The notes beneath the pieces are model-generated. The model worked only from the letters and a program-made list of their open reading frames with translations. It searched no databases and was not told the origin of the DNA. From the UHGV virus genome UHGV-1370141: a stretch of DNA of 64,000 nt; one strand, 5' to 3'. A program made the position numbers and the translations under genes. Each line of letters starts with the position of its first letter. The first letter of the stretch is position 1. Source of the stretch: a virus. Shown in pieces: positions 1 to 31,025 of the stretch.

Positions 1-501
1 TGCTGCCCGAGACTTGCTTTTAATCCTGGCGTGTGCACCGCTTTCACCCCAGTGATAAGCCAATGCAATTTCTGCAATAGTGGGCTTGCGTTTGAGTCGT
101 TTAGTCAACCCCTTTTCTAAATGTTTAACGTAGACGGAAGCCAATAGCACCGCATTACGAGGATTGTACAAATCCGCGTTACGACTAAGTCCGATTTCGT
201 TGCCGTAGAGTTTTAGTAAATTACGCTTTGTGCTCGGTAGCATCTGAACCAGACTGTGCGCTTTAGACGTTCGATTATACGCCTTCGGATTAAACCGCGA
301 TTCCCGATAGATTAGCGTGGTCATCAACTTAGGATCGACGCCCTGCTTTCGGGAGATTTCCACAATCAACGGTTTTACCCGTTCGAAACGGTCTTGAATC
401 ATTTCGAATTCACGATGGTGTTTGGCACTGGGTGCGGATTTGGATGCGTATGCGTTAAACGCGAAAAGTGTTACCAGTAAAAGAAAGAAAATACGAAACA
501 T
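1..501 (-). CDS. Secreted lytic transglycosylase (SLT domain); partial, C-terminus beyond window start
   Basis: Minus-strand ORF with ATG at 501-499, absent from ORF track because it runs off the window; signal peptide MFRIFFLLLVTLFAFNAYA; SLT motif ESRFNPKAY...SKAHSLVQMLPST. Confidence 0.75.
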   Translation of the reverse strand, partial: MFRIFFLLLVTLFAFNAYASKSAPSAKHHREFEMIQDRFERVKPLIVEISRKQGVDPKLMTTLIYRESRFNPKAYNRTSKAHSLVQMLPSTKRNLLKLYGNEIGLSRNADLYNPRNAVLLASVYVKHLEKGLTKRLKRKPTIAEIALAYHWGESGAHARIKSKSRAA

Positions 502-601
502 ACTAGTTCTCCAGTTGGATTTATACATTTCCGTGTTCCGTAGAACGAAATCACGGCGCGGACAGCTGGAACTCCTTTGTTGTGTGCCCTAATGATAATA
601 T

Positions 602-1126
602 CTATTTAAAAAGGTTTGGAATTAAAGGTTTTGCTTCTTGGTAAAGCGTATCGGGTAAATAGAAACGGTAATGTTGTCTCCTCGGTACGAGTTTCTTTTC
701 GATAAACAAAAAGATTTGTTGACGTTCAGCTTTTGTCAACCAACCGTTAGCCATCCCTAACGGCGGTAAAGCCACCCCACCCTCTAAGTTTTCTGCGGCA
801 TCTGCCAACGCGGTGATACCCGCGATAACATAAGAAACCTGGGATTTCAGTTTCCAATGTGTTTTAGTTGGTAAGAGAATGCAGTTTTCCTCGGGATAAA
901 CATACACATTCCCTATTCGTATTTCGTTAGCGAAGCAACGTTCTCGGTAGTCCTGATAAAGCCCAGGATAGCGTTCTCTGCACGCTAAAGCGATACCCCG
1001 ACCCATTGCCCCTACACAATTTATCGTAACGACCTTGAAGCGCTCAGGGGCGTTAAACAGGTCGTTGTCAATATCCGATTCTGGAAGTATCGTTAGCATA
1101 ACGGTCTTACCGAGTGAGGTAAGCAT
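602..1126 (-). CDS. Macro-domain (ADP-ribose binding/processing) protein, putative
   Basis: VVTINCVGAMGRGIALA resembles macro VNAAN..GGGGVDGAI; later CILLPT and ALPPLGMANGW resemble HTVGP and FPAISTGVYG segments. Confidence 0.5.
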   Translation of the reverse strand: MLTSLGKTVMLTILPESDIDNDLFNAPERFKVVTINCVGAMGRGIALACRERYPGLYQDYRERCFANEIRIGNVYVYPEENCILLPTKTHWKLKSQVSYVIAGITALADAAENLEGGVALPPLGMANGWLTKAERQQIFLFIEKKLVPRRQHYRFYLPDTLYQEAKPLIPNLFK

Positions 1127-1199
1127 AATTGATGCACAGGGATAAACCGCGTTCCACCAATCGCCAACTCAACCAAAATCGCTATATACGTTTTAGACA

Positions 1200-1574
1200 T
1201 TAACGATTCCTTTTCACCCATTGACTGATAACGGACTCCAGTCCTTCGTGTTCGAGACCGAGGCGTTTCATGGCAAGGTGTAATTCCAGCGTGTGAGTAA
1301 TCTGTTCTCGGGTTTGGGCGTCGTTCATCTTCTCCCAGACCTTCTCCAGATTAATGTTAAATTTTGACAGCATATACGCTTCGCGACACGCACCACGACG
1401 CCACAAACTCGGTTTAACGAACGGTAATTCGATTTCTGGAATCAGCCACAGCAGTTTATTAACCCGCGTAAGTTCACTACCACCGATTTCGTGACACTGA
1501 TAACAGATTTGTAAGATGTCGCTGTTATCCAGTGGTTCACTAAATAGATACGGGGTTTGGGTTCCTGGTAACAT
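1200..1574 (-). CDS. Hypothetical protein
   Basis: 124-aa ORF; AAGGAG 7 nt upstream of ATG. Confidence 0.55.
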   Translation of the reverse strand: MLPGTQTPYLFSEPLDNSDILQICYQCHEIGGSELTRVNKLLWLIPEIELPFVKPSLWRRGACREAYMLSKFNINLEKVWEKMNDAQTREQITHTLELHLAMKRLGLEHEGLESVISQWVKRNR

Positions 1575-1776
1575 CTGGATTCTCCTTAGGCTCGAAAGGT
1601 GATTCAGGTGGCAGCGTTCCTAACGCACCTTGAATACAGGCTGTCAGTGCAGGTTTACCAAAACACACCTGACCGATCTTACCCATGTTGGGATGCTGGA
1701 GAAATGCTTTTGCGCGTTCGTATTCTTTCCAGCAAATGCTTGTATCCATTCCACCTACACCGAAACTGTTTAACAT
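1540..1776 (-). CDS. Hypothetical small protein
   Basis: 78-aa ORF; AGGAGA RBS; 35-nt overlap with downstream gene. Confidence 0.45.
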   Translation of the reverse strand: MLNSFGVGGMDTSICWKEYERAKAFLQHPNMGKIGQVCFGKPALTACIQGALGTLPPESPFEPKENPDVTRNPNPVSI

Positions 1777-1842
1777 AAGTAGCTCTCCTGACGTAAAATT
1801 CTCACACTCATAGTGAGGAACGTCAAGAGAGCCTTTATTGTT

Positions 1843-2286
1843 TTAGAAAGTTTTGCTGAAATCCACCCATTCTTTATCGTGAGAATAGGTTGCTTTGTAG
1901 CCACGACGAATGAAATACTCTTTCGCTTCTTTGCACTTCGTGTACATCCCAATGGCAATTTCACCGAATGCTTCATCAGCGGCTATCGCTTTGAAGATTT
2001 CTTTCATTACCCCACGCTGACGGTAATCAGGCAGCACGTATAACGAACGAATTTTGAGTACCCCGTTGCGATTACGGTAACTGCAATAACCCACCGCAAC
2101 ATCGTCGATATAAATCAGAACAACACAGTTGCCTTCGATCAGTTGACGCACGTTTAATTTCGGTACAGCGGTTTTGATTTTCAGCATCGTTGCTTGGTGA
2201 TCTAAGTAACGGTAATGAAGTGCGAGTAAATCTTTCGCTTGTTCTTCACCGATTTTAGAAAGTGCGTTCAACAAATAAATTTCCAT
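1843..2286 (-). CDS. GNAT-family N-acetyltransferase
   Basis: 147 aa; acetyl-CoA motif A-like LYVLPDYRQRGV(MKEIFKA). Confidence 0.6.
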   Translation of the reverse strand: MEIYLLNALSKIGEEQAKDLLALHYRYLDHQATMLKIKTAVPKLNVRQLIEGNCVVLIYIDDVAVGYCSYRNRNGVLKIRSLYVLPDYRQRGVMKEIFKAIAADEAFGEIAIGMYTKCKEAKEYFIRRGYKATYSHDKEWVDFSKTF

Positions 2287-2318
2287 TTATCAGACCTTAC
2301 AGACGCAAAAAGATGAAA

Positions 2319-2447
2319 TTAAAACCAACGTCCAATGATAAAAGCGGCAGCGGCGAGAAGCAGTACGGTAATAAAACCCGCACCCCATGTTAGTTCCGCG
2401 TTATATAAAGCGCCGATTGCAGCATTGGTAGTATTGACAACAGTCAT
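2319..2447 (-). CDS. Small hydrophobic peptide (42 aa, one TM helix), putative
   Basis: Own translation MTVVNTTNAAIGALYNAELTWGAGFITVLLLAAAAFIIGRWF; GAGGGAAG RBS before ATG; below ORF-track size cutoff. Confidence 0.3.
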   Translation of the reverse strand: MTVVNTTNAAIGALYNAELTWGAGFITVLLLAAAAFIIGRWF

Positions 2448-2461
2448 AGTTCTTCCCTCGT

Positions 2462-2492
2462 AAAACACCCTCCCAGTTACCCAGGAGGGGGT
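2462..2492 (-). terminator. Possible intrinsic terminator hairpin
   Basis: Inverted repeat CCCTCC...GGAGGG followed by T-run on minus strand. Confidence 0.3.
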
Positions 2493-2498
2493 TCTAAC

Positions 2499-2609
2499 TT
2501 AACTGTGCGTAGAGCCTTTGAAAGCCCATCCGTACTTATTAATCAGCCAGTTGAGAGATTTCCCAATAATCCACAACGACCCAAGTGTTAACAGAATACC
2601 CTCAATCAT
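2499..2609 (-). CDS. Small hydrophobic peptide (36 aa), putative
   Basis: Own translation MIEGILLTLGSLWIIGKSLNWLINKYGWAFKGSTHS; ATGA start/stop overlap with upstream ORF; GGAGGGAAG RBS. Confidence 0.3.
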   Translation of the reverse strand: MIEGILLTLGSLWIIGKSLNWLINKYGWAFKGSTHS

Positions 2610-2806
2610 GACTTCCCTCCAACACACCGCCACTCACATTCGCGTTGGTGCCAAATTGAACCCCAGGTGAGCCTAATCGCGTACGCTAAGACCACCCATA
2701 AAATCGCCGTTATACAAAATAGCACGTACAGAATGGCAACCAGCACCATGACGCTAAACCCTAAAACGCTTAGTAACTGACGCCACCAATCAGTTTGCGT
2801 AGACAA
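2606..2806 (-). CDS. Small membrane protein (66 aa, hydrophobic core)
   Basis: TTG start preceded by AAGGAG; start overlaps ATPase stop by 17 nt; hydrophobic stretch LLSVLGFSVMVLVAILYVLFCITAILWVVLAYAI. Confidence 0.4.
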   Translation of the reverse strand: MSTQTDWWRQLLSVLGFSVMVLVAILYVLFCITAILWVVLAYAIRLTWGSIWHQRECEWRCVGGKS

Positions 2807-5312
2807 TTTTTACTCCTTCGTTGTAAACCGCAGGCAGTGTTACGCCTTCAGGTTCAATAACACAGTATGCGGCTTCGTTAAGTTTTGAATGAATTTCTGC
2901 TTCGTGAGATACCACCAGTAACTGAGAGAACTCACCGGAATTCGCCAGGGTTTTAATAAACCCAACGAGGTTATTTCGGTGTTCTTCATCCATCCCTTCT
3001 GACGGCTCATCCAACAGTAGCGGATACTGATGAAGTTTCAGGGCTTTGTAAGCGGTTAAACGAAACATCAAATTAAAGATGGCTCGCTGCGCTTTCGACC
3101 CTTTCCGCACGTCAGGTACCGGTTCAGGATGGGTTTTTAACTGCACTGGGAACGTGTAGTCTAAGTCACCGTCGGTTAAGTCACACGGCATGACCCGCAT
3201 AGGGTAGGTCCAGACTTGTTCGATATATCGCGTCATCAATTCCGTGATTCTCACGATAGCGTTGTAGAAGTATTTGCGTAGTACCCCTTTCTCGGGCGAG
3301 AACGCTTGAATCATCAGTTTGTTATTGAATTGCTGTGCCTGTAAATCCGATAACTCCTTTTCTAACGCAGTAAGTTGGTTGAGCTCGTTTTCCATCTGAC
3401 GGTACCGTTCCCGTGCTGTGGTGAACGCATCCAACTTGTTTTCTCGGGCGTTTAATAACGTTTCGACCACCGTGTTGGTTAATGTTACCTTAACATCGTT
3501 CTCTAAACGCTCAAAAACCGCATTAAAATTGTCTACAGTGGCTTTAAGTTCGTTTAGATAACAAAAGGTATCATTAGCAACTGCGTGCTCTCTACGGCGC
3601 TCTGAGAGCGTTTCTGTCGCCTTACCCAAACGCTCCTGCTGGAAGGCAATTTTCTGCTGTAGAGCACCATCAACGTTACCTACCGCTGCAACTGCGTTTG
3701 CCCACTCTTTTTCCGCTTTAGCAAAACGGTGTTTCGTTTCGTGGTATTCAATTGCGGAATAAAGTTCACGATCGAACTCTGCACACAAACTGCCAAACTG
3801 ACTGCGGTTATCCGTAAAGACATTCCGCTCCTGGAGACGTTTAAAGAACAAACTCAATACCGGGTCTTTCGAGTATGTTAAAACGATTTCCCGCACTTGG
3901 CGCATGTAATTAACGTCCGACTCTAATTCCGTACGGTCTCGCAACACGGAATCAAGCTGAGTCTGTAACGTATTACGTTGCTCCATTTGTCCACGAATGG
4001 CTTCTTCCAATTCAGGCAAAGAACGACGCACGCCCGGACGGAATTTAAATTGACACTGCGGACAATCAACCTCTGCGGTTTCCAAATAGTGATTCCGTTC
4101 GTGGTTGAGGTTCTGCAATACGTTTTCAACGCGTTGTAGTCGGTCACGCAACCCAGATGAGTTCTGGTCTAAGGTCAACAGTTTCTCTTCCAGTACGTTC
4201 AACCGTTCCGTTGATTTAATAGCATCCAGCGTTGTTCCTAAACGTTGTCCCCAGACACGCGCATCCGTCGCTGCTTTAAGCTGGTCAATGTTAACGGTCT
4301 CCGCAAACAGTTCAGGGAAAAGATGTTCGGTGTCCCACTGCTTTAATAACTCACGCAGTTTTGCAACCGTGTTCTTTAACCCTTCGTGATTCCGCATCAG
4401 GTAATCTTGGCGGGTAGACTCGTCCATCAACAGAGACAAATCTTTGTTTAGCATAGACAGCTCTGTTTCAGCAGAGACCACCGCTTCACGGGCAGTGGCT
4501 TCAACGCGTCGTGCTTCCTCTACCTGTTCTTCCGTAGGTAATCCACCACGGTGTTCCAAGATAGCATTAATCGGTGCTTCGATTTTAAGCAATAGCGATT
4601 GAATCGTTGCCACCGTAACGTCACGATTCAGGCCCGGCAGTTGTTCAATCTGTTTGTTGAGTTCACGTAAATCTGCTTCTAATGCTTTTAACCGTGTTGC
4701 TAACTGCTGACGTTCTTCCTCGTTATCAATCACGCGGGTACGCAACTCTGCAATCTTGCGGCTGGTGATTTCAATACCGCCGTTTAACATCGTCAGGTTT
4801 TTTCGTAAACGTTGATAAAAACCTAACGCGTAAGTTAAGTCTGACGTACTTAAACGGTAGAACCACTTACGACGCAGTTCCGTTCCTGCATCCGTTAAAA
4901 GCACTTCTCCGTTCAGTAACTCTTTAATCTCTTTTGTAATGCCCGTGATTTCTTCTACACGAGAGTTATACACTTTCGCATTACCTTGTTCGACGATTTT
5001 GGTACCCGTCGTCAGGTTCTCGATATCGCAAACCAGTGAGTTGCCTTTACGTGCAACCTTAAATTTGTAACGATGGTCGTTAACCAAACAGATGTTGGTG
5101 TAAGAACCCCCGTCACGGAATTCGGATTTCGAAGGTGCGATAGGTAGAAACACGGACAGTAAGCTGGTCTTACCGCAGCCGTTACCACCGAGGATAATAG
5201 TGGTTGGGGAATGGATAGTAAAATCGAAGGTTTCGATTTCGTGTAGTCCCATCCCGGTAAACCCTTTAAGTACAATACGTTCAACTTTTAACATGTCCAC
5301 CTCCATATTCAC
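2790..5312 (-). CDS. SbcC/Rad50-like ATPase (Walker A, coiled coil with CxxC zinc-hook-like motif, Walker B)
   Basis: N-terminal GGNGCGKTS; long coiled-coil region with central CPQC; C-terminal LLLDEPSEGMD and VVSHEAE. Confidence 0.65.
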   Translation of the reverse strand: MNMEVDMLKVERIVLKGFTGMGLHEIETFDFTIHSPTTIILGGNGCGKTSLLSVFLPIAPSKSEFRDGGSYTNICLVNDHRYKFKVARKGNSLVCDIENLTTGTKIVEQGNAKVYNSRVEEITGITKEIKELLNGEVLLTDAGTELRRKWFYRLSTSDLTYALGFYQRLRKNLTMLNGGIEITSRKIAELRTRVIDNEEERQQLATRLKALEADLRELNKQIEQLPGLNRDVTVATIQSLLLKIEAPINAILEHRGGLPTEEQVEEARRVEATAREAVVSAETELSMLNKDLSLLMDESTRQDYLMRNHEGLKNTVAKLRELLKQWDTEHLFPELFAETVNIDQLKAATDARVWGQRLGTTLDAIKSTERLNVLEEKLLTLDQNSSGLRDRLQRVENVLQNLNHERNHYLETAEVDCPQCQFKFRPGVRRSLPELEEAIRGQMEQRNTLQTQLDSVLRDRTELESDVNYMRQVREIVLTYSKDPVLSLFFKRLQERNVFTDNRSQFGSLCAEFDRELYSAIEYHETKHRFAKAEKEWANAVAAVGNVDGALQQKIAFQQERLGKATETLSERRREHAVANDTFCYLNELKATVDNFNAVFERLENDVKVTLTNTVVETLLNARENKLDAFTTARERYRQMENELNQLTALEKELSDLQAQQFNNKLMIQAFSPEKGVLRKYFYNAIVRITELMTRYIEQVWTYPMRVMPCDLTDGDLDYTFPVQLKTHPEPVPDVRKGSKAQRAIFNLMFRLTAYKALKLHQYPLLLDEPSEGMDEEHRNNLVGFIKTLANSGEFSQLLVVSHEAEIHSKLNEAAYCVIEPEGVTLPAVYNEGVKIVYAN

Positions 5313-5378
5313 GGAGCGTGGTGTAAAAAGAAAAAAAATAAAAGAGAAGGGAGAGAACCCGAAGGTTCTCTCGTGGTA

Positions 5379-5987
5379 TTACGGCTGGTAGAGTTTGTAA
5401 CCCATCTCCTGCCAGTTTTGGATATTTTTCGATTGCTCAACCCAAGCCTGGCCTGCGTCGGACGCAACAACTTCCATCGTCAGTAAACAAATCAGATTGG
5501 TAACGGGAACACATTTGCCTGGTGTAACGTCATCCAAATACACCGGATACAGATAAGGTGATTTGATGCTTTGATACGGATAGGAATAATGCGTTCCTAC
5601 AACCCAACCTTCTTCCACCGGGCAGAGGTTAAAGGTACGCGTTTCTGGGATTTCCCCTTCAGAGATCCAATTTACAACGTCGGCCTTAATACGGCCGTTG
5701 TCGATGTAGTAGAACACAACACGTTGCGGGATACCTGCACCCCCGGTAGGGTCTATTGCTTCCAGCGCTTTAAACGGTGTATTATTTAGCGTAGTACGGT
5801 TATCTAACGCGTACATCAGCTTTTCGTAAGCGGTTGGCGTTTTACGTTCGAAATACGCTTTCAAACGCGGGTACGCTAAGAACCCTTCGACTTCTTCCTC
5901 CATTAAATCGATGAATAACGGAGAATGTGGATTAGCTTCGTTTAGTCGCATCGCTTCGATAAAACGAACCAAAGTAATTTCGTTCAT
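5379..5987 (-). CDS. Hypothetical protein
   Basis: 202-aa ORF, ATG start. Confidence 0.55.
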   Translation of the reverse strand: MNEITLVRFIEAMRLNEANPHSPLFIDLMEEEVEGFLAYPRLKAYFERKTPTAYEKLMYALDNRTTLNNTPFKALEAIDPTGGAGIPQRVVFYYIDNGRIKADVVNWISEGEIPETRTFNLCPVEEGWVVGTHYSYPYQSIKSPYLYPVYLDDVTPGKCVPVTNLICLLTMEVVASDAGQAWVEQSKNIQNWQEMGYKLYQP

Positions 5988-6003
5988 GTTTCAGTTTCCT
6001 TTG

Positions 6004-15985: not shown

Positions 15986-18900
15986 ATGGCTGTCGTCCTA
16001 GACCCACACTTCAAAGAACCGGGGAATAAAATAACCGGTGAAGCGGTCGCCGTCATTGGTACGAAGTACCGAATGTTGGTACCTGCCCACGCCCCTTTTT
16101 TCACCACATCCCTGGTGGTCAAGAGCGGCGGCAAAATACTGACCTTAGGCGACGATTACGTTATTACACACCCGTACGAGACCGGTATGTTGCGCACAGC
16201 CTATCTCGTGCACGGGATGATTTGGATTGTTAACGACAAATACAAATCGAATTTCACGGTAGATTACCACGCCGTAGGTTGCGGTGAGGCAACCCAAGAA
16301 CAGATTACCGCAGAACGCGAACTCAATAAAGATAAATACCCGTCTGCGTGTCAATGGGATACCGTTATCGGCGACGTTTACTTTCCACCGGTCGACATTC
16401 AGTTCGACTGGGAAAACTGGAAAGGTGAACTGGAATTAATGCAGACCATTGCAGGCTTAGGTGATTCGTTAGGTAACGTGGTGAATCGGGTAGACCCGAT
16501 TGCACGTAACACGTTAGATATCGAGCATCGCGCTAATGGTACGGTTAGCACGTCTGAACAGTACGCAACGTACGACAACAAAGGTGGGTATACTTACAAT
16601 ACCGCTAAACGTCGTTTCTCCGTTACGTACAAAACCACCACGTTAAATGAATATTCCCTGTCGATGAAATACCGTATTCCGGCTATTTTTCCGAATATGG
16701 GGAGTATTAATCCGAACGAACAAATCGATTGGATGTTGTGCTATGCGAATGGTGGCGCAAGTATCCTTCGTCTCCAATTAAAACAACGTAAAATCAGCCT
16801 ACGACTGACGGTCGCGTTAGGCAGTGGTTCGACCGATTATGATTATACGTTAATCAACGGTTTGACCGATGACGAATTAAAAGGCGAATTAACGTTTAGC
16901 GTTGTCCGTCAACCGGGTAACGGTGTATACGTTATCGAGGTGACGACTAACAAACAGTCCATGGACTATACGTTTAACGTCGACACACCGCCAGACGAAT
17001 TCTCAGCAGGTTACAGCAAAACGGATGTTGCGAAGTGGCTGAAATACAAAACCAACGTTAACTTAAACTGGTGGGCGGCTGAAAACGATTACGCTCAATT
17101 CCTTGCGTTACCTGGTGCGCCAGAAGCAGACGTAAGTAACGACGTTTATCAGTTAATCGTTAAGTACCATCAGTTAGTAGAGCAACTCTATCGCAACGCA
17201 CCTGCACACGAACACGTTACACGTAAGGACAACCCGCACAGCGACACGTGGGGACCGATTCGTGCGTTAGAATTAAACGGCATTGCGTCCGACGCAGCGT
17301 TAACCTACGGGAAAACCAAGCGACAGTTAACGGACTACGTTAACGCTAAATACCCAACACAGGCAACGCTAACCACCCAGAGAAAACTGCTTCGAGAATC
17401 GGCGAGCAAGAACGTTAACGGCACGATTACAGCGCTCCCTGGCTTTACGTCATTTACTACTGAAGTCGACCCAGTGTCGATGTCGAAATACGTTAGTCGG
17501 CAATTTAGCGAATATTACGTTTCGAACGGAATTGGATACCACGGAGCACTTCGCTACGCTGGAACTAAAAACGGGTTCTCATGTTATTTTAACGGTGTTC
17601 CCGCTGATTTACAAGACATCGACTTTATTGTAACGGGTACAAGAGTTGCAGGCGATAATTCAGCGATCGGCGTGGCTCAGATGCGATTCTACGAGAATCC
17701 GGGTACCGAGTCCGGTAAGTATGTTGAGCTGGAAGGTTCGCTCTCCGGAGATCGCCTTTCCATCCAAGTATCGCTTGGCGGATATGGTGTCGGTACAGAC
17801 CCACAAGTCCGTTATATCTCCAAAGCACCTGATCCGGTGGTGCCTGCTGGCGATTTCACATTACGTTTCCAGATGAAACGAACCGGTAATCTTTTTGACG
17901 TTATCGTTACGGTGAACGGGAAAACCTACAGTGCGCGTGTCAATTTCGTCAATATGGATGCCGAGTTAGAAGCGCTGGAAAACCGTTATCACTTCAAGAG
18001 CTTTATTAATAACGTTGCAGATAGGGTCAGTATCCAATCTGCTCACAACAGAAACTACGTTACCATCAAAAAGGCTCCTGACGTTGTTGACGAAAGACGT
18101 TTAGGCGCTCAATTCGTTGTTGATCCGAAGTCCATTAAGTTTATCGGTCAAGGTTCTACCGATGTTCATGCGGGTAACAACCCTGTTACGTTACAGGCAG
18201 GCGATAACCAGCTTGTGCTATACCCCGATGACCGTGGACTGTTGTGGCGTGGTAAGAAACTCTTAGACCCCACTACGGTAGCGCCGTATTTGCCGGGTAA
18301 TACCGCAGGCGGTACAGGTCTGTTCTACGGTGCATCTACAGCTACAGTGGAACTTACTGGTAGCGGGATTAAAGCATCGCCGTTTGTCGCAACGTTTATC
18401 CTTCCGGTTGCCGAAGACGTCACGACGTTAGCCTGCTGGCAGTTAACGGATGAATTCGGTACGGCTGAAAACCTTGCAGCTACACCCGCGTTAATTGAAA
18501 AACTGGACGCAGAGTTTACCGGTAAGTTAGTTGCTGCCAAGTCGTACATCAACGACATGCAGCTTACCAGTTCGATTACTATCGACAAAATTACCTTTGG
18601 TTTAGGTAACGTTGCGAATACCCCGGACCTCGATTTGCCGATTTCTGTTGCACAACAGACTGAGTTAGACAAATACTCACCGAAGGTTCACCAACACCCG
18701 TCTTCTGTGTTCGGTGTTGAAAACGCAGACACCACGAAACGGGGTCTGATTAAATTCGGTCTGGAAGTGGATGATACCACTTTAGCACTCGATGGTAGTG
18801 TGGTGATGGCGCAGACTTCCCAGATTGAAAATTTGGAGAATACCGTCGGCGGGGTTGACTCGGGTGCGCGCGTTGACATTATTCGCTTTGGTAAGTCCGG

Positions 18901-20311
18901 TAACGACTTAATTGACGTTACGGTTAAAGACAATATCCTGGTGTCACTTCCTGCTTCCACGTATTTCGTTGGCGGCGAAACGTACGACGTGCCGTTGATG
19001 ACGGTTAACGTTACCGAACGTTTCCCGAACCCGAAAACAGTAATTTACGCAGGGATTTTTGTTGATATCGTTGACAACAAAGCGAAGTACATTATCCACG
19101 ACAGCTATAACCAAGCTGAGACGGATACCATGACGCGTGTGGGAAGACTCGTTGTTAATGATCTTTCCGAAGTGGATGTAGTGGAGTTGCGTAACGTGAC
19201 ACGGTTAGGCGATTTCCGTGAGCTGAAAGACCACGTCGCCAATGACAACGCACACATTCACCGCTCCGCGTCACGTGCAGTGCTGGGGTTAAGCAATTTA
19301 ACAGTAGGTGCGCCCTGCTGGGCTTCTGGACTTCAAGCGGTTGTGCGTGGCGAGGCAGATTGGCGCTATGTGGTTGGTGGTGGATATAAAGCACTCGATG
19401 GTGTGAAATACGACCAGCTTGCGTCGAAGTGGGTGTTTGATGCGAAAGGGGTAAGTGATAATGTTCACGGGTTTATCCACAACCTGTTCCCAGTATTTAA
19501 CAATGCGGGGATGCGAGTCAGTTGGGAAACCGAAAGCAACGCAAAAACCGGTACGGTGCTAGAAACCATCCTGGGTTGCTGGAAAAACACCGATGGCGAG
19601 TTTATGCGGTTGTCGTTACTTATCACCCGTGGTTACCGGTTAACTGACAGTAACGGTGAATATTGTTACGCGGGGTTCGGTTTGAACTTCAGTAACGGGA
19701 AATCGGTAGTGTTAGGTTTCACGCCAACGAAACGTGTTACAGCTGCACCATGGAGCACATTACAACCTGACGTAACGTTTAGTCACACCCGTGGTGCAAA
19801 CAACGCAATAACGTTTAATGCAACACTGACCTTAGCTGGTACTGCGTATACCATTGTGGTGTATTTGTCTGCGACGGATAAATACGTAAGCTGTACAGCA
19901 GCAGGGGGAACTACGCAGAAAATCTCACTGAGTGACCGTTTAACCGGGTTCAACCTCGCACCTATCGTTAACGATCCGTATACCCCTATTTACTACGGAT
20001 TAGGGGGACTTTATGAGGACGAAGTGCGTGCTAATATCCGTTCTACGGCAGACAGCATAATCGGGAACAAACTCTACGGTACGCTGTTGGATTATATCAG
20101 CAACTACTCCTCGTTAAATCGTGTACGCGTCGTGGAATTGGCCGGGACAAGCTCAGACCCTGAAACGCTTAATGCGCTAGTGGCGACTGAGTTTAATAAC
20201 AACCTGGCGGATTACGCTGCGTTACCGATACCTCCTTATCTTAACAAGGAGCGCGTAATGTCGTTTATCGACACCAACAATTTAGTGCAGGCGGTAATCA
20301 TTCGCGATTAA
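15986..20311 (+). CDS. Giant tail fiber / baseplate-associated fiber protein (1441 aa)
   Basis: TAGGAG RBS; internal phage-fiber-type repeat ...FGLGNVANTPDLDLPISVAQQTELDK...; size and context. Confidence 0.6.
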   Translation: MAVVLDPHFKEPGNKITGEAVAVIGTKYRMLVPAHAPFFTTSLVVKSGGKILTLGDDYVITHPYETGMLRTAYLVHGMIWIVNDKYKSNFTVDYHAVGCGEATQEQITAERELNKDKYPSACQWDTVIGDVYFPPVDIQFDWENWKGELELMQTIAGLGDSLGNVVNRVDPIARNTLDIEHRANGTVSTSEQYATYDNKGGYTYNTAKRRFSVTYKTTTLNEYSLSMKYRIPAIFPNMGSINPNEQIDWMLCYANGGASILRLQLKQRKISLRLTVALGSGSTDYDYTLINGLTDDELKGELTFSVVRQPGNGVYVIEVTTNKQSMDYTFNVDTPPDEFSAGYSKTDVAKWLKYKTNVNLNWWAAENDYAQFLALPGAPEADVSNDVYQLIVKYHQLVEQLYRNAPAHEHVTRKDNPHSDTWGPIRALELNGIASDAALTYGKTKRQLTDYVNAKYPTQATLTTQRKLLRESASKNVNGTITALPGFTSFTTEVDPVSMSKYVSRQFSEYYVSNGIGYHGALRYAGTKNGFSCYFNGVPADLQDIDFIVTGTRVAGDNSAIGVAQMRFYENPGTESGKYVELEGSLSGDRLSIQVSLGGYGVGTDPQVRYISKAPDPVVPAGDFTLRFQMKRTGNLFDVIVTVNGKTYSARVNFVNMDAELEALENRYHFKSFINNVADRVSIQSAHNRNYVTIKKAPDVVDERRLGAQFVVDPKSIKFIGQGSTDVHAGNNPVTLQAGDNQLVLYPDDRGLLWRGKKLLDPTTVAPYLPGNTAGGTGLFYGASTATVELTGSGIKASPFVATFILPVAEDVTTLACWQLTDEFGTAENLAATPALIEKLDAEFTGKLVAAKSYINDMQLTSSITIDKITFGLGNVANTPDLDLPISVAQQTELDKYSPKVHQHPSSVFGVENADTTKRGLIKFGLEVDDTTLALDGSVVMAQTSQIENLENTVGGVDSGARVDIIRFGKSGNDLIDVTVKDNILVSLPASTYFVGGETYDVPLMTVNVTERFPNPKTVIYAGIFVDIVDNKAKYIIHDSYNQAETDTMTRVGRLVVNDLSEVDVVELRNVTRLGDFRELKDHVANDNAHIHRSASRAVLGLSNLTVGAPCWASGLQAVVRGEADWRYVVGGGYKALDGVKYDQLASKWVFDAKGVSDNVHGFIHNLFPVFNNAGMRVSWETESNAKTGTVLETILGCWKNTDGEFMRLSLLITRGYRLTDSNGEYCYAGFGLNFSNGKSVVLGFTPTKRVTAAPWSTLQPDVTFSHTRGANNAITFNATLTLAGTAYTIVVYLSATDKYVSCTAAGGTTQKISLSDRLTGFNLAPIVNDPYTPIYYGLGGLYEDEVRANIRSTADSIIGNKLYGTLLDYISNYSSLNRVRVVELAGTSSDPETLNALVATEFNNNLADYAALPIPPYLNKERVMSFIDTNNLVQAVIIRD

Positions 20312-20324
20312 GGAGAATTTTTTG

Positions 20325-23300
20325 ATGAAAGCGTATCCTTACGATCCTCGGGGGACGAAAACCGAGAATCACTTCTTAGAGGAGCGTATCATCGGGTCAG
20401 AAAACAACAACGACCGGGTGGTGATTTTAGACCATCGCCCGTTCTTTGAAGACTTAGTCGTCAGACAACCAGGTTCAACCACCCCACTGAGCCGTGGGGT
20501 GGACTACGAACTGCAATATCAGCTGACGGAACTGGATGACTCGGTAGCAGCCAACGTGTATTGTGGGGTACACCTTATCAACCCATCCATTAAAGGTATT
20601 GTAACCTTTGAAGGACAAATGCTCGGCGGTACGTTCTACGACCCGTTCGTTGACATGCTCGACGAGTTGGTGAAATATTTGAATAACCCAGTCAGTGCAG
20701 ACTGGCTGTTGTTAGACGGTAGACCGTCATTATACCCAGCTACGCCTGCGGCAACGTCCTGGGCGGATTTGCTGAACAAAAAATACTTAGCGTCAGCGAT
20801 TCACGATATTGAGTTGAAAACCGATGACGCTAACCAGCTAATTAAAGATAAATTAGCCGAAGTTAAAGCGCTAGTGACTGCGTTGGGGAAAGAAATTGAA
20901 GCGTTTAACTACCCAGCACATATCGCCGCGACGAACCCGCACGAAACCACGAGCGCACAAATTAACGCCCATCCCGTTAACCTGAAAACACCTGACACCT
21001 TTATGGCGTACGGGTTAAAGTTGAAAGCGTTAACGGATGAACTGAAAGCGTTTCGTTTACCACAGTCAGTTATTGACACGTATATCTCCCACTGGATTTC
21101 TTCGGAAGTACGGGGCGTGTTTAACTGTACGGTGTCTGGAAACCGCGCACAATTCCGTTCGAAAAACGGTGAGTCAGAAATCATTTTTGCGAATGATGGC
21201 TTTACGTTAAAATCCAACGGTTCTGTGGTATTAGCGGTAGGGCATCTGGAAGGCACAGGTGCGGGGCGTTACATTAACTGGCGTGCGGGTAAAAACACGT
21301 TACGCATCGAGTCAACCGGTGACGCTTTAGGGATGAACAAACTCACCCTGAACGGTAACCCGTTGTTGACCACCACAGCGCTGATGGAGTATCAGCAAGA
21401 CCCTGATGCTGGCGGGAGTGGCGGTAGCGATCCTGATGACTCCAAAGTGTATATCGAAGGCCGTAACGGGATTAGTTTTACCGGTAAAGGTTCTCGTGCC
21501 GATCCCATCGTGGGGACTATCGACCCGACGAAAGCGACCACCGCTGAAAAAGGTGTTGTTAAGCTTAAAACCGGTAAAGGCACAGAAACGGTTGGGGTTG
21601 CTGCAACACCTGCGTCATTAACGCCGTATTCAACCGACTTATCAGGGTACGTGACTAAAACGACCATGATTAACGGTAAGCCGATGAACGACGGTTCCAG
21701 GACAATCACGAAAGCTGACCTGGGATTAGGGCAAGCGGATAACACCGCAGACCTTGACAAACCGTTGTCTACTGCACTGAATGCTTCGGTTAGTGGTTTA
21801 GCAGATGTTGGCCACCATCACGACTGGTCAGAGTTAGGCATTTATAAAGCCTCGCAGACGGTTTACGGTATCGGTCGTTACGCAACTAACCAGAATGGCT
21901 TAGTTGAAAACCGTGCAGTGGTACCGAACATCCTAAAAGAGCTTTCAGCACGTTTAGATGTGGTTGCTGCCGCAATTGCGAATGCGAAAGAAGGTACGGT
22001 AACTGATTTTGCTGCTGTGAAAGGTGCAGACTGGCGTTTTAATAGCCAGGGTACGGCAATCTCCGTTCAGGATTTGAAATATTTCTATTTGCTAAATGGT
22101 GAAAAGGCCGACGGTGTCGTTACCGGCGCGATTGACCTGCAAACCACCCCGATGTTTAACTGGTTCTCACCGAACAACCAGCTTGAGCTGACTTGGCCTA
22201 CGGGGAAAGTTAGTAGGGGTACTGGGATTAGTTGGGATGGAATTGTTGATCCTCCAACAATGGGGTTTCAGTCAGTTCCGGTAGGTAAAACCGCTATACA
22301 GATGGGTGACCAGTCAGTTGTTACGGTGCTGGCAAAAACACGGGTCAAAGCTTATCAGAATAGGCTGTTTGTTTACGCCGCTGGCGGTGGAATGATAACC
22401 GTTTATGTAAATGGTGTTGTGGCTGCTACCGGTGAATCTCCGTTGTTAATGAACTACACAACGTCGTCAGATGTTGAAAATTACACAATCGCTGTTAAAG
22501 CAGAATGTAGCGATACGGCTAAGTCCGCAGCGGTACAGTTTGAAGTTTACGATGGCGATTACCCTGTTTACTTCAGTGGCCCTGAAACACACGTAGAGCT
22601 TCTCCAGGAGTTTGTTACCACGCACGTAGGGATTCGTCACTATTTGTACGTTAACATGCTCACAGGCTCTCTATATTCGCGTGCTGAACCGATTCAGAGC
22701 ATCGCAGTTGATCCTGAACGTGGTTATATCGGTTACGTTGATATTGTTGCTGGTGAGAATTACGCGAATAAAACGGTAGGGTTCGAAACCACGTTTGATT
22801 TCGGGAAAAGTGCCGAGGTTAGTGAACACATCGACACGCGTAAAGCGCACGGACTCAGTTCTGTGGACTGGGCGTTAACGGATAACCCACGTTTGCCGTT
22901 ATTAAACCGTGCTATTGCCGAACCGAGAGCGTGTATCTTTAGGAAAGCGTTAGCAACCGGTACAGGCGATGTTTTCCATCTTGTCAGTCGTGGTCTTTAT
23001 ACTTACGCACACAACCAAAACGTGAAGTCCAGTCTTCAGTACGTTGTGATTCCTGAAGGTGCTACACCGTATTGCTGGTTTACACCGTTTAACCCGAAAG
23101 AAAACAACGCACCGACTTTCGAAGGTTCGTTTGCGTTTGACGTTGACGACGTCGGTGGGACGCAAGCCCTTGCTGCTGCGCCGGATTTGGTTCTATGCTC
23201 GTCAACGCAAGGGAGTAGCGTTAAACGTCGCTATCTGCGCATTGACCTAACTGCCAAAGCGTGTAAGCTGGGGATTGGTTCCCGTTCAGATTCTGCCGTT

Positions 23301-24506: not shown

Positions 24507-24542
24507 GACAGGCTGCCTGCGGGCAGTTGTGTGTCCGTAGGT

Positions 24543-24581
24543 AACCCCTCCCTGTAATGGGGAGGGGTATCCATTTTATTT
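24543..24581 (+). terminator. Intrinsic terminator/attenuator between fiber genes
   Basis: Hairpin ACCCCTCCC-tgtaat-GGGGAGGGGT followed by TTTTATTT. Confidence 0.55.
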
Positions 24582-24601
24582 AAAAAGTAGGAGTCTTTAC
24601 G

Positions 24602-29785: not shown

Positions 29786-29825
29786 TGACTCGGGACAAGG
29801 ATGTCTCGAATAAAGGAGAGTGGCC

Positions 29826-31025
29826 ATGGCCTCCATTGTTTATCAATATCCTTTAGATTTAACGGGCTCGCTAACGTCTAACGCTGTGGAGCGTCAGATT
29901 ACGTTAGGTACAGGTAAAGTAAACCGTGCTTTTGCTTTTCCTGACGGCCCGTTCTTTGCGGACACGTTCCGTTTACGTGTTGCTAACCGACCGGATGCAA
30001 CCTACGAACGTGGTACCGATTATGAGTTGATTTTTGCACACCCGACTTATGAAAAGCTGACTAAAAACCGCGAGATTGTTATGGCGGTGGTGGTCACTAA
30101 CACAGCGATTCCAACAGATATTACGGTATCTGCGCAGGTCGTTGGTGGACCACAGTCTGCGAACATCGTGGCTATCGAACAGGCGATTGCTGAATTAAAC
30201 CTCGATAACCGTACGGTTGCGTTTAAAGACCTGCGTAACGTACCAGATACATTCCCTTCTGCACCGACGTATAAAGACGTAGGTGACATCTACGGTTTTG
30301 AATATATCATTACCGTATTGGCGGGTATTAAAGATGCGATCAGTTCCGGTGACGCAGTACAGTTAGAGAACATTAAAGCGATTTTAGAAAGCCTGAAAAA
30401 TGACTTCTTAGACGCTTTAAATGCACACATTAACGCAACCGGTAACGTTCACCATCTTGATATTCATCAGGTTAACGGGTTAACAGAAACTGAAATCCGT
30501 GCGCTTATTCGTGACGTCCAGTCTGCCATCGACGCAACGATTACGGAAATCAATGCACTGAAGAAAGCGGACGAAGCTTTAGGTAAACGTATTGACGCTG
30601 TTGTCAACTCTCTGGAAGCGTGGAACGACCAACTTAACGTGGTTGCTCAAAACTACCAGAAAATGGCCTTAGCGTTGGCGAACCTGAACTCGTTAGTGTT
30701 ACAGCTGCAAAAGAGCATTAACGATCTGAACACGAAACTGAATCAGGTTATTCAGCGTGTTGATGCGTTAGAGCAACAGGGTCAAGAAACCGATCAGAAA
30801 ATCGATCAGCTACAACAAAACCTGGATGCGCTTAAACAGCAGGTTAACAATAACACGAACGCAATCAGTCAAGCGAACCAGAACCTACAAAACCACATTG
30901 CGGCAGATGACCCGCACACCGGTTATCTCCACAAGAGATACGGTGGTGTGGTTCAGGCCCCAGTACACGTTAACGCTAACCTGACGTCTCGTGATGACGT
31001 ACAGGCGGAAGCGGGTACGAAATAA
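29826..31025 (+). CDS. Coiled-coil fiber-like protein (399 aa)
   Basis: ATG at 29826 with AAGGAG at correct spacing (track GTG at 29820 is too close); Q/L/N-rich heptad coiled coil in C-terminal half. Confidence 0.55.
   Translation: MASIVYQYPLDLTGSLTSNAVERQITLGTGKVNRAFAFPDGPFFADTFRLRVANRPDATYERGTDYELIFAHPTYEKLTKNREIVMAVVVTNTAIPTDITVSAQVVGGPQSANIVAIEQAIAELNLDNRTVAFKDLRNVPDTFPSAPTYKDVGDIYGFEYIITVLAGIKDAISSGDAVQLENIKAILESLKNDFLDALNAHINATGNVHHLDIHQVNGLTETEIRALIRDVQSAIDATITEINALKKADEALGKRIDAVVNSLEAWNDQLNVVAQNYQKMALALANLNSLVLQLQKSINDLNTKLNQVIQRVDALEQQGQETDQKIDQLQQNLDALKQQVNNNTNAISQANQNLQNHIAADDPHTGYLHKRYGGVVQAPVHVNANLTSRDDVQAEAGTK

What the first reader, a model, noticed from the sequence alone, without database searches (positions are those of the whole stretch)
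602..2286. Adjacent macro-domain protein and GNAT acetyltransferase: candidate anti-defense pair
A macro-domain-like protein (602-1126) and a GNAT acetyltransferase (1843-2286) lie in the same leftward accessory block. Phage macro domains can reverse ADP-ribosylation-based host defenses (DarT-type DNA ADP-ribosylation, for example) and GNAT enzymes can modify host factors or toxins.
Basis: partly seen in the sequence, partly recalled or inferred. Interest (0 to 1): 0.5.

Follow-up and report, generated by a model that had tools for sequence, protein, structure and literature searches.

The report
Phage anti-DarT macrodomain plus unrelated acetyltransferase
The macro-domain gene is a clear relative of AdfM, a recently described jumbo-phage enzyme that strips toxic ADP-ribose marks off phage DNA, while the nearby acetyltransferase is an uncharacterised gene that comes and goes independently, so the two are neighbours rather than a working pair.

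Summary
They are not directly adjacent: two conserved small ORFs lie between them.

**Macro protein.** It is a stand-alone DarG-type macrodomain.
- It matches DarG profiles at E about 1e-31 and solved DarG macrodomains at E 2.8e-20.
- The AlphaFold model (pLDDT 95) has DarG structures as its four best PDB matches.
- Both catalytic residues (Thermus DarG N22 and K80) are invariant.
- It is 62% identical and syntenic to Erwinia phage Asesino gp217, and 35% identical to PhiKZ gp104.
- Those two proteins are the AdfM (anti-DarT factor macro) proteins published in 2026. PhiKZ AdfM removes DarT2 ADP-ribose from DNA, and the AdfM proteins tested, including Asesino gp217, localise to the phage nucleus.

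**GNAT.** It is a genuine GNAT fold (pLDDT 92). It belongs to a narrow family specific to SPN3US-like jumbo phages, and its substrate is unknown.

**Evidence against a functional pair.**
- The macro gene occurs in 272 phage records, the GNAT in 53.
- Derbicusvirus keeps the syntenic macro gene but has no GNAT.
- One close relative has a 34-bp frameshifting deletion in the GNAT while its macro gene is intact.
- The GNAT diverges much faster than the macro gene.

Verdict: a new member of a known kind, of modest interest.

The parts
602..1099 (-). AdfM-like stand-alone DarG-type macrodomain gene. It is 165 aa from the probable start at 1099; the longest ORF extends to an ATG at 1126, giving 174 aa. 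The catalytic residues are N27 and K79 (N36 and K88 in 174-aa numbering).
   Evidence: ORF. DarG profiles. Solved DarG macrodomains by sequence. Alignment with Asesino gp217, SPN3US gp70, PhiKZ gp104 and Taq/Mtb DarG, with N and K invariant. AF2 pLDDT 95; Foldseek top hits 5m3e, 5m31, 5m3i and 7omu.
1200..1574 (-). Conserved hypothetical gene (124 aa, phrog_11720) lying between the macro gene and the GNAT. Function unknown.
   Evidence: Homologues sit at the same position in SPN3US, Asesino, Stratton and metagenomic relatives; they are absent from Derbicusvirus.
1540..1776 (-). Conserved hypothetical gene (78 aa, phrog_28329) immediately downstream of the GNAT. Function unknown.
   Evidence: It is found with the GNAT in the Seoulvirus, Erskinevirus and Machinavirus loci examined.
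1843..2286 (-). GNAT-fold acyltransferase (147 aa) of a family restricted to SPN3US-like jumbo phages. Acceptor substrate unknown. Motif A is atypical: R89-Q-R-G92-V-M94.
   Evidence: Pfam hits above cut-off. phrog_3810. AF2 pLDDT 92.4. Foldseek gives generic GNAT hits. Family size and invariant residues.
1..501 (-). N-terminal 167 codons of an SLT-type transglycosylase (endolysin) with a hydrophobic N-terminal segment. The gene runs off the start of the window. It is the conserved downstream neighbour of the macro gene.
   Evidence: Translation. The orthologous full-length gene carries PF01464 SLT in L015 and L016. Same position in SPN3US, Asesino and CR5.
2790..5312 (-). SbcC/SMC-like ATPase (840 aa). 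It is the conserved upstream anchor of the variable region that holds the GNAT. Context only.
   Evidence: phrog_77 at E 2.4e-92, with a sub-threshold Pfam SMC_N match. Synteny.

Best explanation
The window comes from a previously undeposited jumbo phage of the SPN3US/Asesino lineage (Seoulvirus/Erskinevirus-like chimalliviruses). Close relatives turn up in Salmonella enterica assemblies.

Gene 602-1099 encodes an orphan DarG-type macrodomain, that is, an AdfM orthologue. Inferred mechanism: host DarT2 ADP-ribosylates thymidines in single-stranded phage DNA. The phage enzyme binds the ADP-ribose in the macro pocket and, using the conserved Asn/Lys pair, hydrolyses the base-ribose bond and restores normal DNA. 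It acts catalytically, without the C-terminal DarT-binding domain of the bacterial antitoxin. By analogy with PhiKZ gp104 and Asesino gp217, it probably works inside the phage nucleus.

Gene 1843-2286 encodes an independent, fast-evolving accessory GNAT. It is most probably an acetyl-CoA-dependent protein N-acetyltransferase acting on a host or phage protein (host takeover or counter-defence). It sits in a variable region downstream of the SbcC-like gene.

The two genes are neighbours by descent, not a functional module.

Shown here: the folds, the catalytic residues, the orthology, the synteny and the distribution. Inferred: enzymatic activity, the DarT2 target, nuclear localisation, and the GNAT substrate.
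For: **Macro gene**
- phmmer against PDB: M. tuberculosis DarG macrodomain at E 2.8e-20 and T. aquaticus DarG at E 7e-18.
- NCBIfam antitoxin_DarG at E 7.8e-31, covering only profile positions 7-154 of 338. PADLOC DarG at E 4.6e-31, covering 7-150 of 329.
- AF2 pLDDT 95, pTM 0.90.
- The four best Foldseek matches in PDB are all DarG: 5m3e at E 1.3e-13, rmsd 2.1 A, TM 0.78/0.84, 32% identity. TARG1 comes next.
- N27 and K79 align with Taq DarG N22/K80 and PhiKZ N23, and are invariant in 7 and in 36 sequences. The roles of these residues are taken from PMC13309987.
- 62% identity and the same genomic position as Asesino gp217 (YP_009290835.1). 35% identity, E 4e-26, to PhiKZ gp104.
- The function of AdfM was shown experimentally in PMC13309987. 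T4 Tk.4/AdfM was shown independently (bioRxiv 10.1101/2025.11.20.689424).

**GNAT**
- Pfam hits above cut-off. AF2 pLDDT 92.4. Hundreds of GNAT structural hits with TM 0.6-0.74.
- 15 invariant residues across 33 family members.

**Independence of the two genes**
- 272 phage records carry the macro gene against 53 for the GNAT.
- CR5 and Derbicus keep the order SMC ... macro - endolysin without a GNAT.
- One relative has a 34-bp frameshifting deletion in the GNAT.
- Against SPN3US, the macro protein is 64% identical, the GNAT 40% and SMC 58%.
Against: - No biochemical or genetic test has been done on this protein.
- The phage AdfM proteins tested enzymatically (PhiKZ gp104) are only 35% identical. 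For the closer Asesino orthologue only nuclear localisation was shown.
- The generic Pfam Macro model scores below its gathering cut-off.
- The host of this phage, and whether it carries DarTG2, are unknown. No chimallin or PicA gene was identified inside this 64-kb window, so the nucleus-forming lifestyle is inferred from relatives only.
- For the GNAT, the acceptor is unknown and motif A deviates from Q/R-x-x-G-x-G/A: M94 is invariant, and G92 is replaced by K, H or Y in relatives. Activity itself is therefore not certain.
- Wherever this GNAT family and enough flanking sequence were seen, a macro gene was also present. A one-sided dependence of the GNAT on the macro gene is therefore not excluded.
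Confidence: 0.72

Rival explanations
1. The macro protein and the GNAT form a cooperating anti-defence module. For example, the GNAT might acetylate and inactivate an ADP-ribosylating toxin or another defence protein while the macro enzyme repairs the damage.
For: - Both genes lie on the same strand within 1.7 kb. That arrangement is kept in Seoulvirus, Erskinevirus, Machinavirus and several metagenomic lineages.
- Every examined genome with this GNAT family and enough flanking sequence also has the macro gene.
- The GNAT region shows copy-number variation of the kind typical of arms-race genes.
Against: - The macro gene occurs in 272 phage records and the GNAT in 53.
- Derbicusvirus has the syntenic macro gene without a GNAT.
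- PhiKZ AdfM works alone against DarT2 in E. coli (PMC13309987).
- The GNAT is frameshifted in L004 while the macro gene there is intact.
- Two to five unrelated ORFs separate the two genes.
- Their divergence rates are very different.
- The whole region is one long co-directional array, so sharing a strand means little.
Confidence: 0.07
2. The macro protein is a general ADP-ribose-metabolite or protein/RNA de-ADP-ribosylase. Candidate activities are Appr-1''-p phosphatase in RNA repair, O-acetyl-ADP-ribose deacetylase, reversal of protein or RNA ADP-ribosylation, or degradation of ADPr-derived immune signals. On this reading it is not a DNA-specific anti-DarT enzyme.
For: - GenBank and PHROG annotations of homologues read 'Appr-1-p processing protein' or 'phosphatase'.
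- Iyer et al. 2021 proposed that jumbo-phage macro domains degrade soluble ADPr signals or take part in RNA repair (PMC7824862).
- TARG1, the next-closest fold, acts on proteins.
Against: - Sequence and fold are closest to DarG by a large margin. Poa1p-type phosphatase matches only at E 0.05-0.14, against DarG at 1e-20. The DarG structures outrank all other macro classes.
- The orthologous family has been shown to act on DarT2-modified DNA (PMC13309987).
- The DarG catalytic pair is conserved.
Confidence: 0.12
3. The GNAT is either a small-molecule acetyltransferase (polyamine, antibiotic or toxic amino-acid analogue) or a catalytically dead GNAT-fold protein with a binding role. Either way it is unrelated to defence.
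For: - The best sequence-level hits are weak and heterogeneous: ArsN2 at E 5.7e-6 (26 bits against a cut-off of 125), AAC(6') and PaiA at E about 0.03-0.09; YjcF at E 0.0075.
- Motif A lacks the final G/A, and the central G is not conserved in the family.
Against: - No subfamily cut-off is reached.
- Many of the top structural neighbours are protein N-acetyltransferases such as Naa50, NatC, Ard1, HP0935, PAT and RimI.
- Invariant polar and aromatic residues (H24, Y25, Q31, N53, Y67, R71, R80, R89) argue for a conserved active or acceptor site under purifying selection.
Confidence: 0.15

Closest known systems
AdfM (anti-DarT factor macro): PhiKZ gp104, PhiPA3 gp108, Goslar gp83, Asesino gp217 (Morgan et al., Cell Rep 2026, PMC13309987); T4 Tk.4/AdfM (HIDEN-SEQ preprint, 10.1101/2025.11.20.689424)
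   Same: - It is a stand-alone protein of about 165 aa with a DarG-like macrodomain encoded by a lytic phage.
- The catalytic Asn and Lys are conserved.
- It is 62% identical and syntenic to Asesino gp217, and 35% identical to PhiKZ gp104.
- PhiPA3 and Goslar homologues are also recovered by tblastn.
   Different: - It comes from a new phage.
- Its genomic position follows the SPN3US/Asesino type, next to the endolysin. By my recollection, not checked here, PhiKZ gp104 instead sits next to chimallin.
- No activity, localisation or phenotype data exist for this protein.
Bacterial DarG antitoxin of DarTG2 toxin-antitoxin systems (T. aquaticus and M. tuberculosis; PDB 5M31, 5M3E, 5M3I, 7OMU)
   Same: The macrodomain fold and active site match (E 1e-20 by sequence; TM about 0.8 and rmsd 2.1 A by structure).
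   Different: - The C-terminal DarT-binding half is missing: only positions 7-154 of the 338-position DarG profile are matched.
- There is no DarT gene next to it.
- It is encoded by a phage, so it is an antitoxin mimic rather than part of a TA pair.
Human TARG1 (C6orf130)
   Same: It belongs to the same macrodomain class and is the next-best structural match after DarG. It has a catalytic lysine at the equivalent position (own knowledge: TARG1 K84).
   Different: Identity is only 17%. By eye, the position of TARG1 D125 appears to hold the G-x-x-N-G loop typical of DarG (the D125 mapping is from my own knowledge, and TARG1 was not included in the alignment). TARG1 acts mainly on protein-linked ADP-ribose.
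Other phage anti-DarT factors: AdfN (T4 30.3, NADAR; PMC11825919), AdfB (ICP1 gp145; PMC11481870), AdfA (RB69; own knowledge of LeRoux et al. 2022)
   Same: They serve the same strategic purpose, which is neutralising DarT-mediated DNA ADP-ribosylation.
   Different: - The folds and mechanisms are unrelated.
- NADAR removes guanine-linked ADPr made by DarT1.
- AdfB probably binds DarT directly.
- The window protein is a macrodomain predicted to act on thymidine-linked ADPr made by DarT2.
SPN3US-group GNAT, e.g. SEGD1 gp196 (AMR59843.1), predicted by Iyer et al. 2021 (PMC7824862) to be a ribosomal-protein-type GNAT; functionally characterised phage GNATs Rac (phiKMV-like phages) and AcrVA5
   Same: - The window GNAT is 40% identical to SEGD1 gp196 and SPN3US gp75 at the same locus.
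- It has the same fold as Rac and AcrVA5. These are phage GNATs that acetylate RNA polymerase alpha and Cas12a respectively (Rac; AcrVA5: own knowledge).
   Different: - The RimI profile scores 15.4 bits against a cut-off of 86.4.
- No specific similarity to any characterised GNAT was found.
- Motif A is atypical, and the substrate is unknown.

Membership tests
AdfM / DarG-type macrodomain | Macrodomain fold of the DarG/TARG1 class | tested here: met
   AF2 model pLDDT 95.0, pTM 0.90. The top four Foldseek PDB hits are DarG macrodomains (5m3e E 1.3e-13, rmsd 2.1 A); TARG1 comes next.
AdfM / DarG-type macrodomain | Sequence similarity specific to DarG rather than other macro classes | tested here: met
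   NCBIfam antitoxin_DarG E 7.8e-31 and PADLOC DarG E 4.6e-31. PDB DarG E 2.8e-20 against Poa1p E 0.05. The generic Pfam Macro model is sub-threshold (19 bits against 22).
AdfM / DarG-type macrodomain | Catalytic Asn and Lys (T. aquaticus DarG N22 and K80; PhiKZ AdfM N23) | tested here: met
   N27 and K79 of the 165-aa protein are invariant in alignments A1 (7 sequences) and A5 (36 sequences). The roles of the residues are taken from PMC13309987.
AdfM / DarG-type macrodomain | Stand-alone phage protein without the DarT-binding C-terminal domain and without an adjacent DarT | tested here: met
   The protein is 165 aa and only the N-terminal half of the DarG profiles is matched. The neighbours are the 124-aa ORF upstream, with no PADLOC hit, and an SLT endolysin downstream (PF01464 SLT in the orthologues of L015/L016).
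AdfM / DarG-type macrodomain | Orthology to an experimentally studied AdfM | tested here: met
   62% identity over 99% of its length to Asesino gp217 (YP_009290835.1), in the same SMC ... macro - endolysin context. 35% identity, E 4e-26, to PhiKZ gp104.
AdfM / DarG-type macrodomain | Hydrolysis of DarT2-made ADP-ribosyl-thymidine on ssDNA; protection from DarTG2; import into the phage nucleus | not testable with these tools
   Requires biochemistry, phage genetics and microscopy. Shown only for PhiKZ gp104 (activity and protection) and for the PhiKZ, PhiPA3 and Asesino proteins (localisation) in PMC13309987.
Bacterial DarTG toxin-antitoxin system | A DarT ADP-ribosyltransferase gene paired with a full-length two-domain DarG | tested here: not met
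   No DarT hit among the neighbouring ORFs. The DarG C-terminal domain is absent. The locus is in a lytic jumbo-phage gene array.
GNAT superfamily | GNAT fold and profile match | tested here: met
   Pfam Acetyltransf_1 35 bits (cut-off 20.7), Acetyltransf_7 33.2 (27), Acetyltransf_10 29.3 (23.6). AF2 pLDDT 92.4. 518 PDB Foldseek matches at E <= 0.001, and all 50 listed are GNAT-family acyltransferases.
GNAT superfamily | Acetyl-CoA-binding motif A, Q/R-x-x-G-x-G/A | tested here: inconclusive
   The window has R89-Q-R-G92-V-M94. M94 is invariant in the family instead of G/A. G92 is replaced by K, H or Y in some members. Tandem paralogues in relatives have the canonical YRRQG[IV]G.
RimI (ribosomal protein S18-alanine N-acetyltransferase), as annotated for several homologues | Score above the equivalog cut-off of TIGR01575 | tested here: not met
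   15.4 bits against a cut-off of 86.4, E 0.016.
Functional two-gene anti-defence module (macro + GNAT) | Consistent co-occurrence and tight linkage of the two genes across lineages | tested here: not met
   - The macro gene occurs without the GNAT in Derbicusvirus at the same locus, and in PhiKZ-like, PhiPA3, Goslar and many other phages.
- The GNAT is a pseudogene in L004.
- Two to five intervening ORFs separate the genes.

The most novel reading that the evidence does not exclude
The stretch just downstream of the SbcC-like gene may be a diversifying counter-defence or host-takeover 'GNAT island' in SPN3US-like chimalliviruses. It holds 0, 1, 2 or 3 tandem GNATs depending on lineage. On this reading, the window's family, with its unusual R-x-x-G-x-M motif, acetylates a specific host immune or translation protein. 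It could also act in concert with AdfM against an ADP-ribosylation-based defence.
Probability: 0.12. Interest if true: 0.55.

Novelty: new member of a known kind. Interest (0 to 1): 0.25.

Why it matters
The finding shows that a reader working from raw sequence correctly recognised a phage counter-defence gene. That gene class (AdfM) was demonstrated experimentally only in 2025-2026.

It also adds an enterobacterial, Salmonella-associated jumbo-phage lineage to the set of chimalliviruses carrying AdfM. In this lineage the gene is one of the best-conserved in its neighbourhood: 48-64% identity where the flanking endolysin is 35-58%. That suggests persistent DarT2-type pressure on these phages.

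For phage therapy, presence or absence of AdfM may predict host range on strains carrying DarTG2.

The GNAT remains an open question. It belongs to a lineage-specific family that varies in copy number, is fast-evolving and is occasionally lost, and no substrate is known. It is a reasonable but unproven candidate for a host-modifying enzyme.

Tried and rejected
- **DNA-level search of phages.** Megablast of 1-6000 found only about 72% identity over 425 bp of the SMC gene. No close deposited genome exists, so I switched to protein-level searches.
- **Generic Pfam Macro.** It is sub-threshold. I rejected that conclusion because DarG-specific profiles, PDB sequences and the fold all agree.
- **GNAT subfamily assignment.** NCBIfam, PDB phmmer, Foldseek against PDB and Foldseek against BFVD gave nothing specific. 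A profile search of 1.84 billion representative proteins found 7 clusters at E <= 1e-30 and 12 at E <= 1e-10, then generic GNAT-core hits.
- **Promoter and terminator scan of 1-3000.** The counts do not exceed shuffled controls, so it gives no information on operon structure.
- **SPFM8 record.** I examined it as a possible natural GNAT loss. The SMC gene is split into three pieces there, so I judged the record low quality and did not use it.
- **Literature search on the GNAT.** I looked for any functional data on chimallivirus GNATs and found only generic predictions.
- **Weak HalA (Hailong) hit.** Macro residues 91-159 hit HalA at E 0.004. I did not pursue it and treat it as probably spurious.
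- **GNAT-type toxin-antitoxin reading.** I considered the GNAT plus the downstream 78-aa ORF as a possible TA pair and set it aside. The 78-aa ORF has no antitoxin-like profile hit, and, from my own knowledge, the gene order is the reverse of known GNAT-RHH pairs.
Full report
**1. Observation**

The six-frame ORF list shows a 174-aa ORF at 602-1126 and a 147-aa ORF at 1843-2286, both on the minus strand, exactly as reported. Two further minus-strand ORFs lie between them, at 1200-1574 (124 aa) and 1540-1776 (78 aa). The genes are therefore 716 bp apart and not strictly adjacent.

All four ORFs have PHROG families: phrog_335, phrog_11720, phrog_28329 and phrog_3810. They are called identically in a near-identical public contig (L015). 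They belong to a long co-directional array that continues upstream through an 840-aa SbcC/SMC-like gene at 2790-5312. Downstream the array continues into an SLT-type endolysin whose first 167 codons occupy 1-501 and run off the window.

The macro gene probably starts at the second ATG (1099, 165 aa). All relatives align from that residue, and the orthologues are annotated or called at 165-166 aa.

**2. Where the window comes from**

Megablast finds only about 72% identity over 425 bp to Erwinia jumbo phages, so no close genome is deposited. At protein level the nearest named relatives are genomes of about 240 kb: SPN3US-like Seoulvirus, Erskinevirus (Asesino, Stratton, phiEaH2) and Machinavirus.

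The order is the same in all of them: SMC-like gene, small ORFs, GNAT, 2-5 ORFs, macro, endolysin. Closer uncultured relatives, with 75-78% macro identity, occur on contigs of about 225 kb. One of these is in a Salmonella enterica assembly (L016, GCA_014613015.1).

Asesino is an established nucleus-forming chimallivirus (PMC11724907). I did not find chimallin or PicA inside this window, so the nucleus-forming lifestyle is inferred from relatives. One search shows virion, tail-fibre and radical-SAM genes in the rest of the window.

**3. The macro protein**

The generic Pfam Macro model is just below threshold (19.0 bits against 22). Three independent, more specific tests agree.

- *Profiles.* NCBIfam antitoxin_DarG gives E 7.8e-31 and PADLOC DarG gives E 4.6e-31. 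Each matches only the N-terminal macrodomain half of the profile: positions 7-154 of 338 and 7-150 of 329.
- *Solved structures by sequence.* M. tuberculosis DarG macrodomain 5M3I scores E 2.8e-20, T. aquaticus DarG 5M31/5M3E E 7e-18 and Thermosipho DarTG 7OMU E 3.4e-10. Poa1p-type Appr-1''-p phosphatases reach only E 0.05-0.14.
- *Fold.* An AlphaFold2 model built on 36 sequences has pLDDT 95.0 and pTM 0.90. Its four best PDB matches are the DarG structures (5M3E: E 1.3e-13, rmsd 2.1 A, TM 0.78/0.84, 32% identity). Human TARG1 follows, and viral nsP3-type macrodomains come only after that.

Morgan et al. mark two residues as catalytic: T. aquaticus DarG N22 and K80, with N23 in PhiKZ gp104. 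In this protein they correspond to N27 and K79. Both are invariant in a 7-sequence alignment with DarG and AdfM proteins and in a 36-sequence family alignment.

**4. Link to published work**

A full-text search found Morgan et al., Cell Rep 2026 (PMC13309987). They report the following.

- PhiKZ gp104, named AdfM (anti-DarT factor macro), removes ADP-ribose from a DarT2-modified oligonucleotide.
- It rescues DarT2 toxicity in E. coli.
- It is needed for PhiKZ to grow on hosts carrying DarTG2.
- It is concentrated in the phage nucleus.
- The Asesino homologue gp217 (YP_009290835.1) also localises to the nucleus.
- About half of chimalliviruses carry such a gene.

The window protein is 62% identical over its whole length to that same Asesino protein, at the same genomic position. 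It is 35% identical (E 4e-26) to PhiKZ gp104, whose sequence I translated from the paper's methods. PhiPA3 gp108 and the Goslar macro protein are also recovered by tblastn. Independently, the HIDEN-SEQ preprint named T4 Tk.4 AdfM and showed that its deletion sensitises T4 to DarTG2.

The window gene is therefore a new member of an already characterised family.

**5. Most likely mechanism**

This section is inference from the family. Host DarT2 ADP-ribosylates thymidine in TNTC motifs of single-stranded phage DNA, which blocks replication and packaging. The phage macrodomain binds the ADP-ribose and hydrolyses the base-ribose bond using the Asn/Lys pair.

It lacks the C-terminal domain through which bacterial DarG also binds DarT, so it should act purely as an enzyme. 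In a chimallivirus it would be imported into the nucleus by the PicA pathway. None of these steps was or could be tested here.

**6. The GNAT**

Pfam Acetyltransf_1, _7 and _10 are all above their cut-offs. An AlphaFold2 model on 33 sequences has pLDDT 92.4. It matches hundreds of GNAT structures at TM 0.6-0.74, but only 10-20% identity and without a clear subfamily. Protein N-acetyltransferases (Naa50, NatC, Ard1, HP0935, PAT, RimI) are frequent among the top hits. Viral structure matches are equally generic.

No NCBIfam subfamily cut-off is approached: RimI scores 15.4 bits against 86.4, and ArsN2 26 against 125.

The family is narrow.
- A profile search of 5.8 billion proteins found 39 clusters, all traceable to jumbo-phage genomes or contigs.
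- An exhaustive HMMER search of 1.84 billion representatives found 7 clusters at E <= 1e-30 and 12 at E <= 1e-10, followed by generic GNAT-core hits.

Fifteen residues are invariant: L21, L23, H24, Y25, L28, Q31, G52, N53, Y67, R71, R80, V84, R89, M94 and F125. This argues for a functional protein.

Motif A is unusual. It reads R89-Q-R-G92-V-M94, with M94 invariant and G92 variable, so acetyl-CoA use is probable but not certain.

The SEGD1 orthologue AMR59843.1 is the example Iyer et al. [quoted passage not shown] I found no experimental data.

**7. Are the two genes a pair?**

Five comparative tests argue against it.

- *Distribution.* tblastn finds the macro protein in 272 phage records from Pseudomonas, Erwinia, Escherichia, Salmonella, Serratia, Vibrio, Klebsiella, Streptomyces and other phages. 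The GNAT is found in 53 records, all SPN3US-like.
- *Same locus without the GNAT.* Cronobacter phage CR5 and Erwinia phage Derbicus keep the order SMC ... macro - endolysin, with 48-49% macro identity. They have no GNAT and no homologue of the two small ORFs, either in the locus or among the 57 records the GNAT matched at E <= 1 across the whole phage collection.
- *Decay.* The 225-kb contig L004 has an intact macro gene (75% identity). Its GNAT carries a 34-bp internal deletion that shifts the frame. The reading rests on that protein being on record from three sources; an assembly error is not excluded.
- *Rates.* Against SPN3US, the macro protein is 64% identical, SMC 58%, the endolysin 53% and the GNAT 40%. 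Against the more distant L013 the figures are 54, 51, 43 and 27%.
- *Spacing.* The number of intervening ORFs varies from 2 to 5.

PhiKZ AdfM is also sufficient on its own to neutralise DarT2 in E. coli. The two genes therefore share a neighbourhood by descent.

One caveat remains. Wherever this GNAT family was seen with enough flanking sequence, a macro gene was present, so a one-way dependence is not formally excluded.

**8.

The interval just downstream of the SbcC-like gene behaves as a variable GNAT site.
- Derbicusvirus has none.
- The window and the named phages have one.
- Several metagenomic lineages have two in tandem (L011, L012, L014, L018, L019).
- L020 has three.

The extra copies have the canonical YRRQG[IV]G motif A. 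Gain, loss, duplication and rapid divergence are typical of genes at the phage-host interface. This gives weak, indirect support to a host-modifying or counter-defence role for the GNATs, independent of AdfM.

**9. Verdict**

The macro gene is an AdfM-type anti-DarT2 enzyme, which is now known biology, so this is a new member of a known kind. The GNAT is an uncharacterised accessory enzyme and not a demonstrable partner.

Interest is modest at 0.25. The main open question is the GNAT's substrate.

Noticed in passing
Loci L009/L010 (none), window 1843-2286 (one), L011, L012, L014, L018, L019 (two), L020 (three): The interval just downstream of the SbcC/SMC-like gene holds 0 to 3 tandem GNAT genes depending on the phage lineage. 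The extra paralogues have the canonical YRRQG[IV]G acetyl-CoA motif. The window's family has R-x-x-G-x-M.
   Followed up: partly
L004:6001-6480 (ENA ERZ27287186, 225-kb contig), aligned to window 1843-2286: A close relative has a 34-bp internal deletion in the GNAT gene that shifts the reading frame, while its macro gene is intact (75% identity). This suggests the GNAT is dispensable. An assembly error is not excluded.
   Followed up: partly
window 1-501 (-): The first 167 codons of an SLT-type transglycosylase (endolysin) with a hydrophobic, signal-anchor-like N-terminus. The gene runs off the start of the window. It is the invariant downstream neighbour of the macro gene in all relatives.
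   Followed up: partly
window 1540-1776 and 1200-1574 (-): Two conserved ORFs of unknown function (78 and 124 aa; phrog_28329 and phrog_11720). They are found with the GNAT in most GNAT-carrying lineages and are missing, like the GNAT, from Derbicusvirus. They overlap by 35 nt in different frames.
   Followed up: partly
window 15986-31025 (+): Three consecutive giant paralogous virion proteins (1441, 1394 and 1727 aa), followed by a 401-aa relative. All share phrog_2163/7449/7557/8078 segments.
   Followed up: no
window 34933-36255 (+): A 440-aa radical-SAM domain protein (phrog_1802, E 3.5e-115) in the jumbo-phage genome.
   Followed up: no
window 52032-56513 (-): A 1493-aa tail-fibre protein. 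It matches 59 PHROG tail-fibre families through multiple repeated stretches, and its C-terminus resembles long-tail-fibre distal subunits.
   Followed up: no
window 602-1126 (-), protein residues 91-159: A weak phmmer hit (E 0.004) to HalA of the Hailong defence system (PDB 9NYI). It is probably spurious.
   Followed up: no
L021 (Salmonella phage SPFM8, LR535906.1): The SMC gene is annotated in three pieces and the GNAT and macro matches are fragmentary. This looks like a low-quality record rather than biology, and other SPFM records may share the problem.
   Followed up: partly
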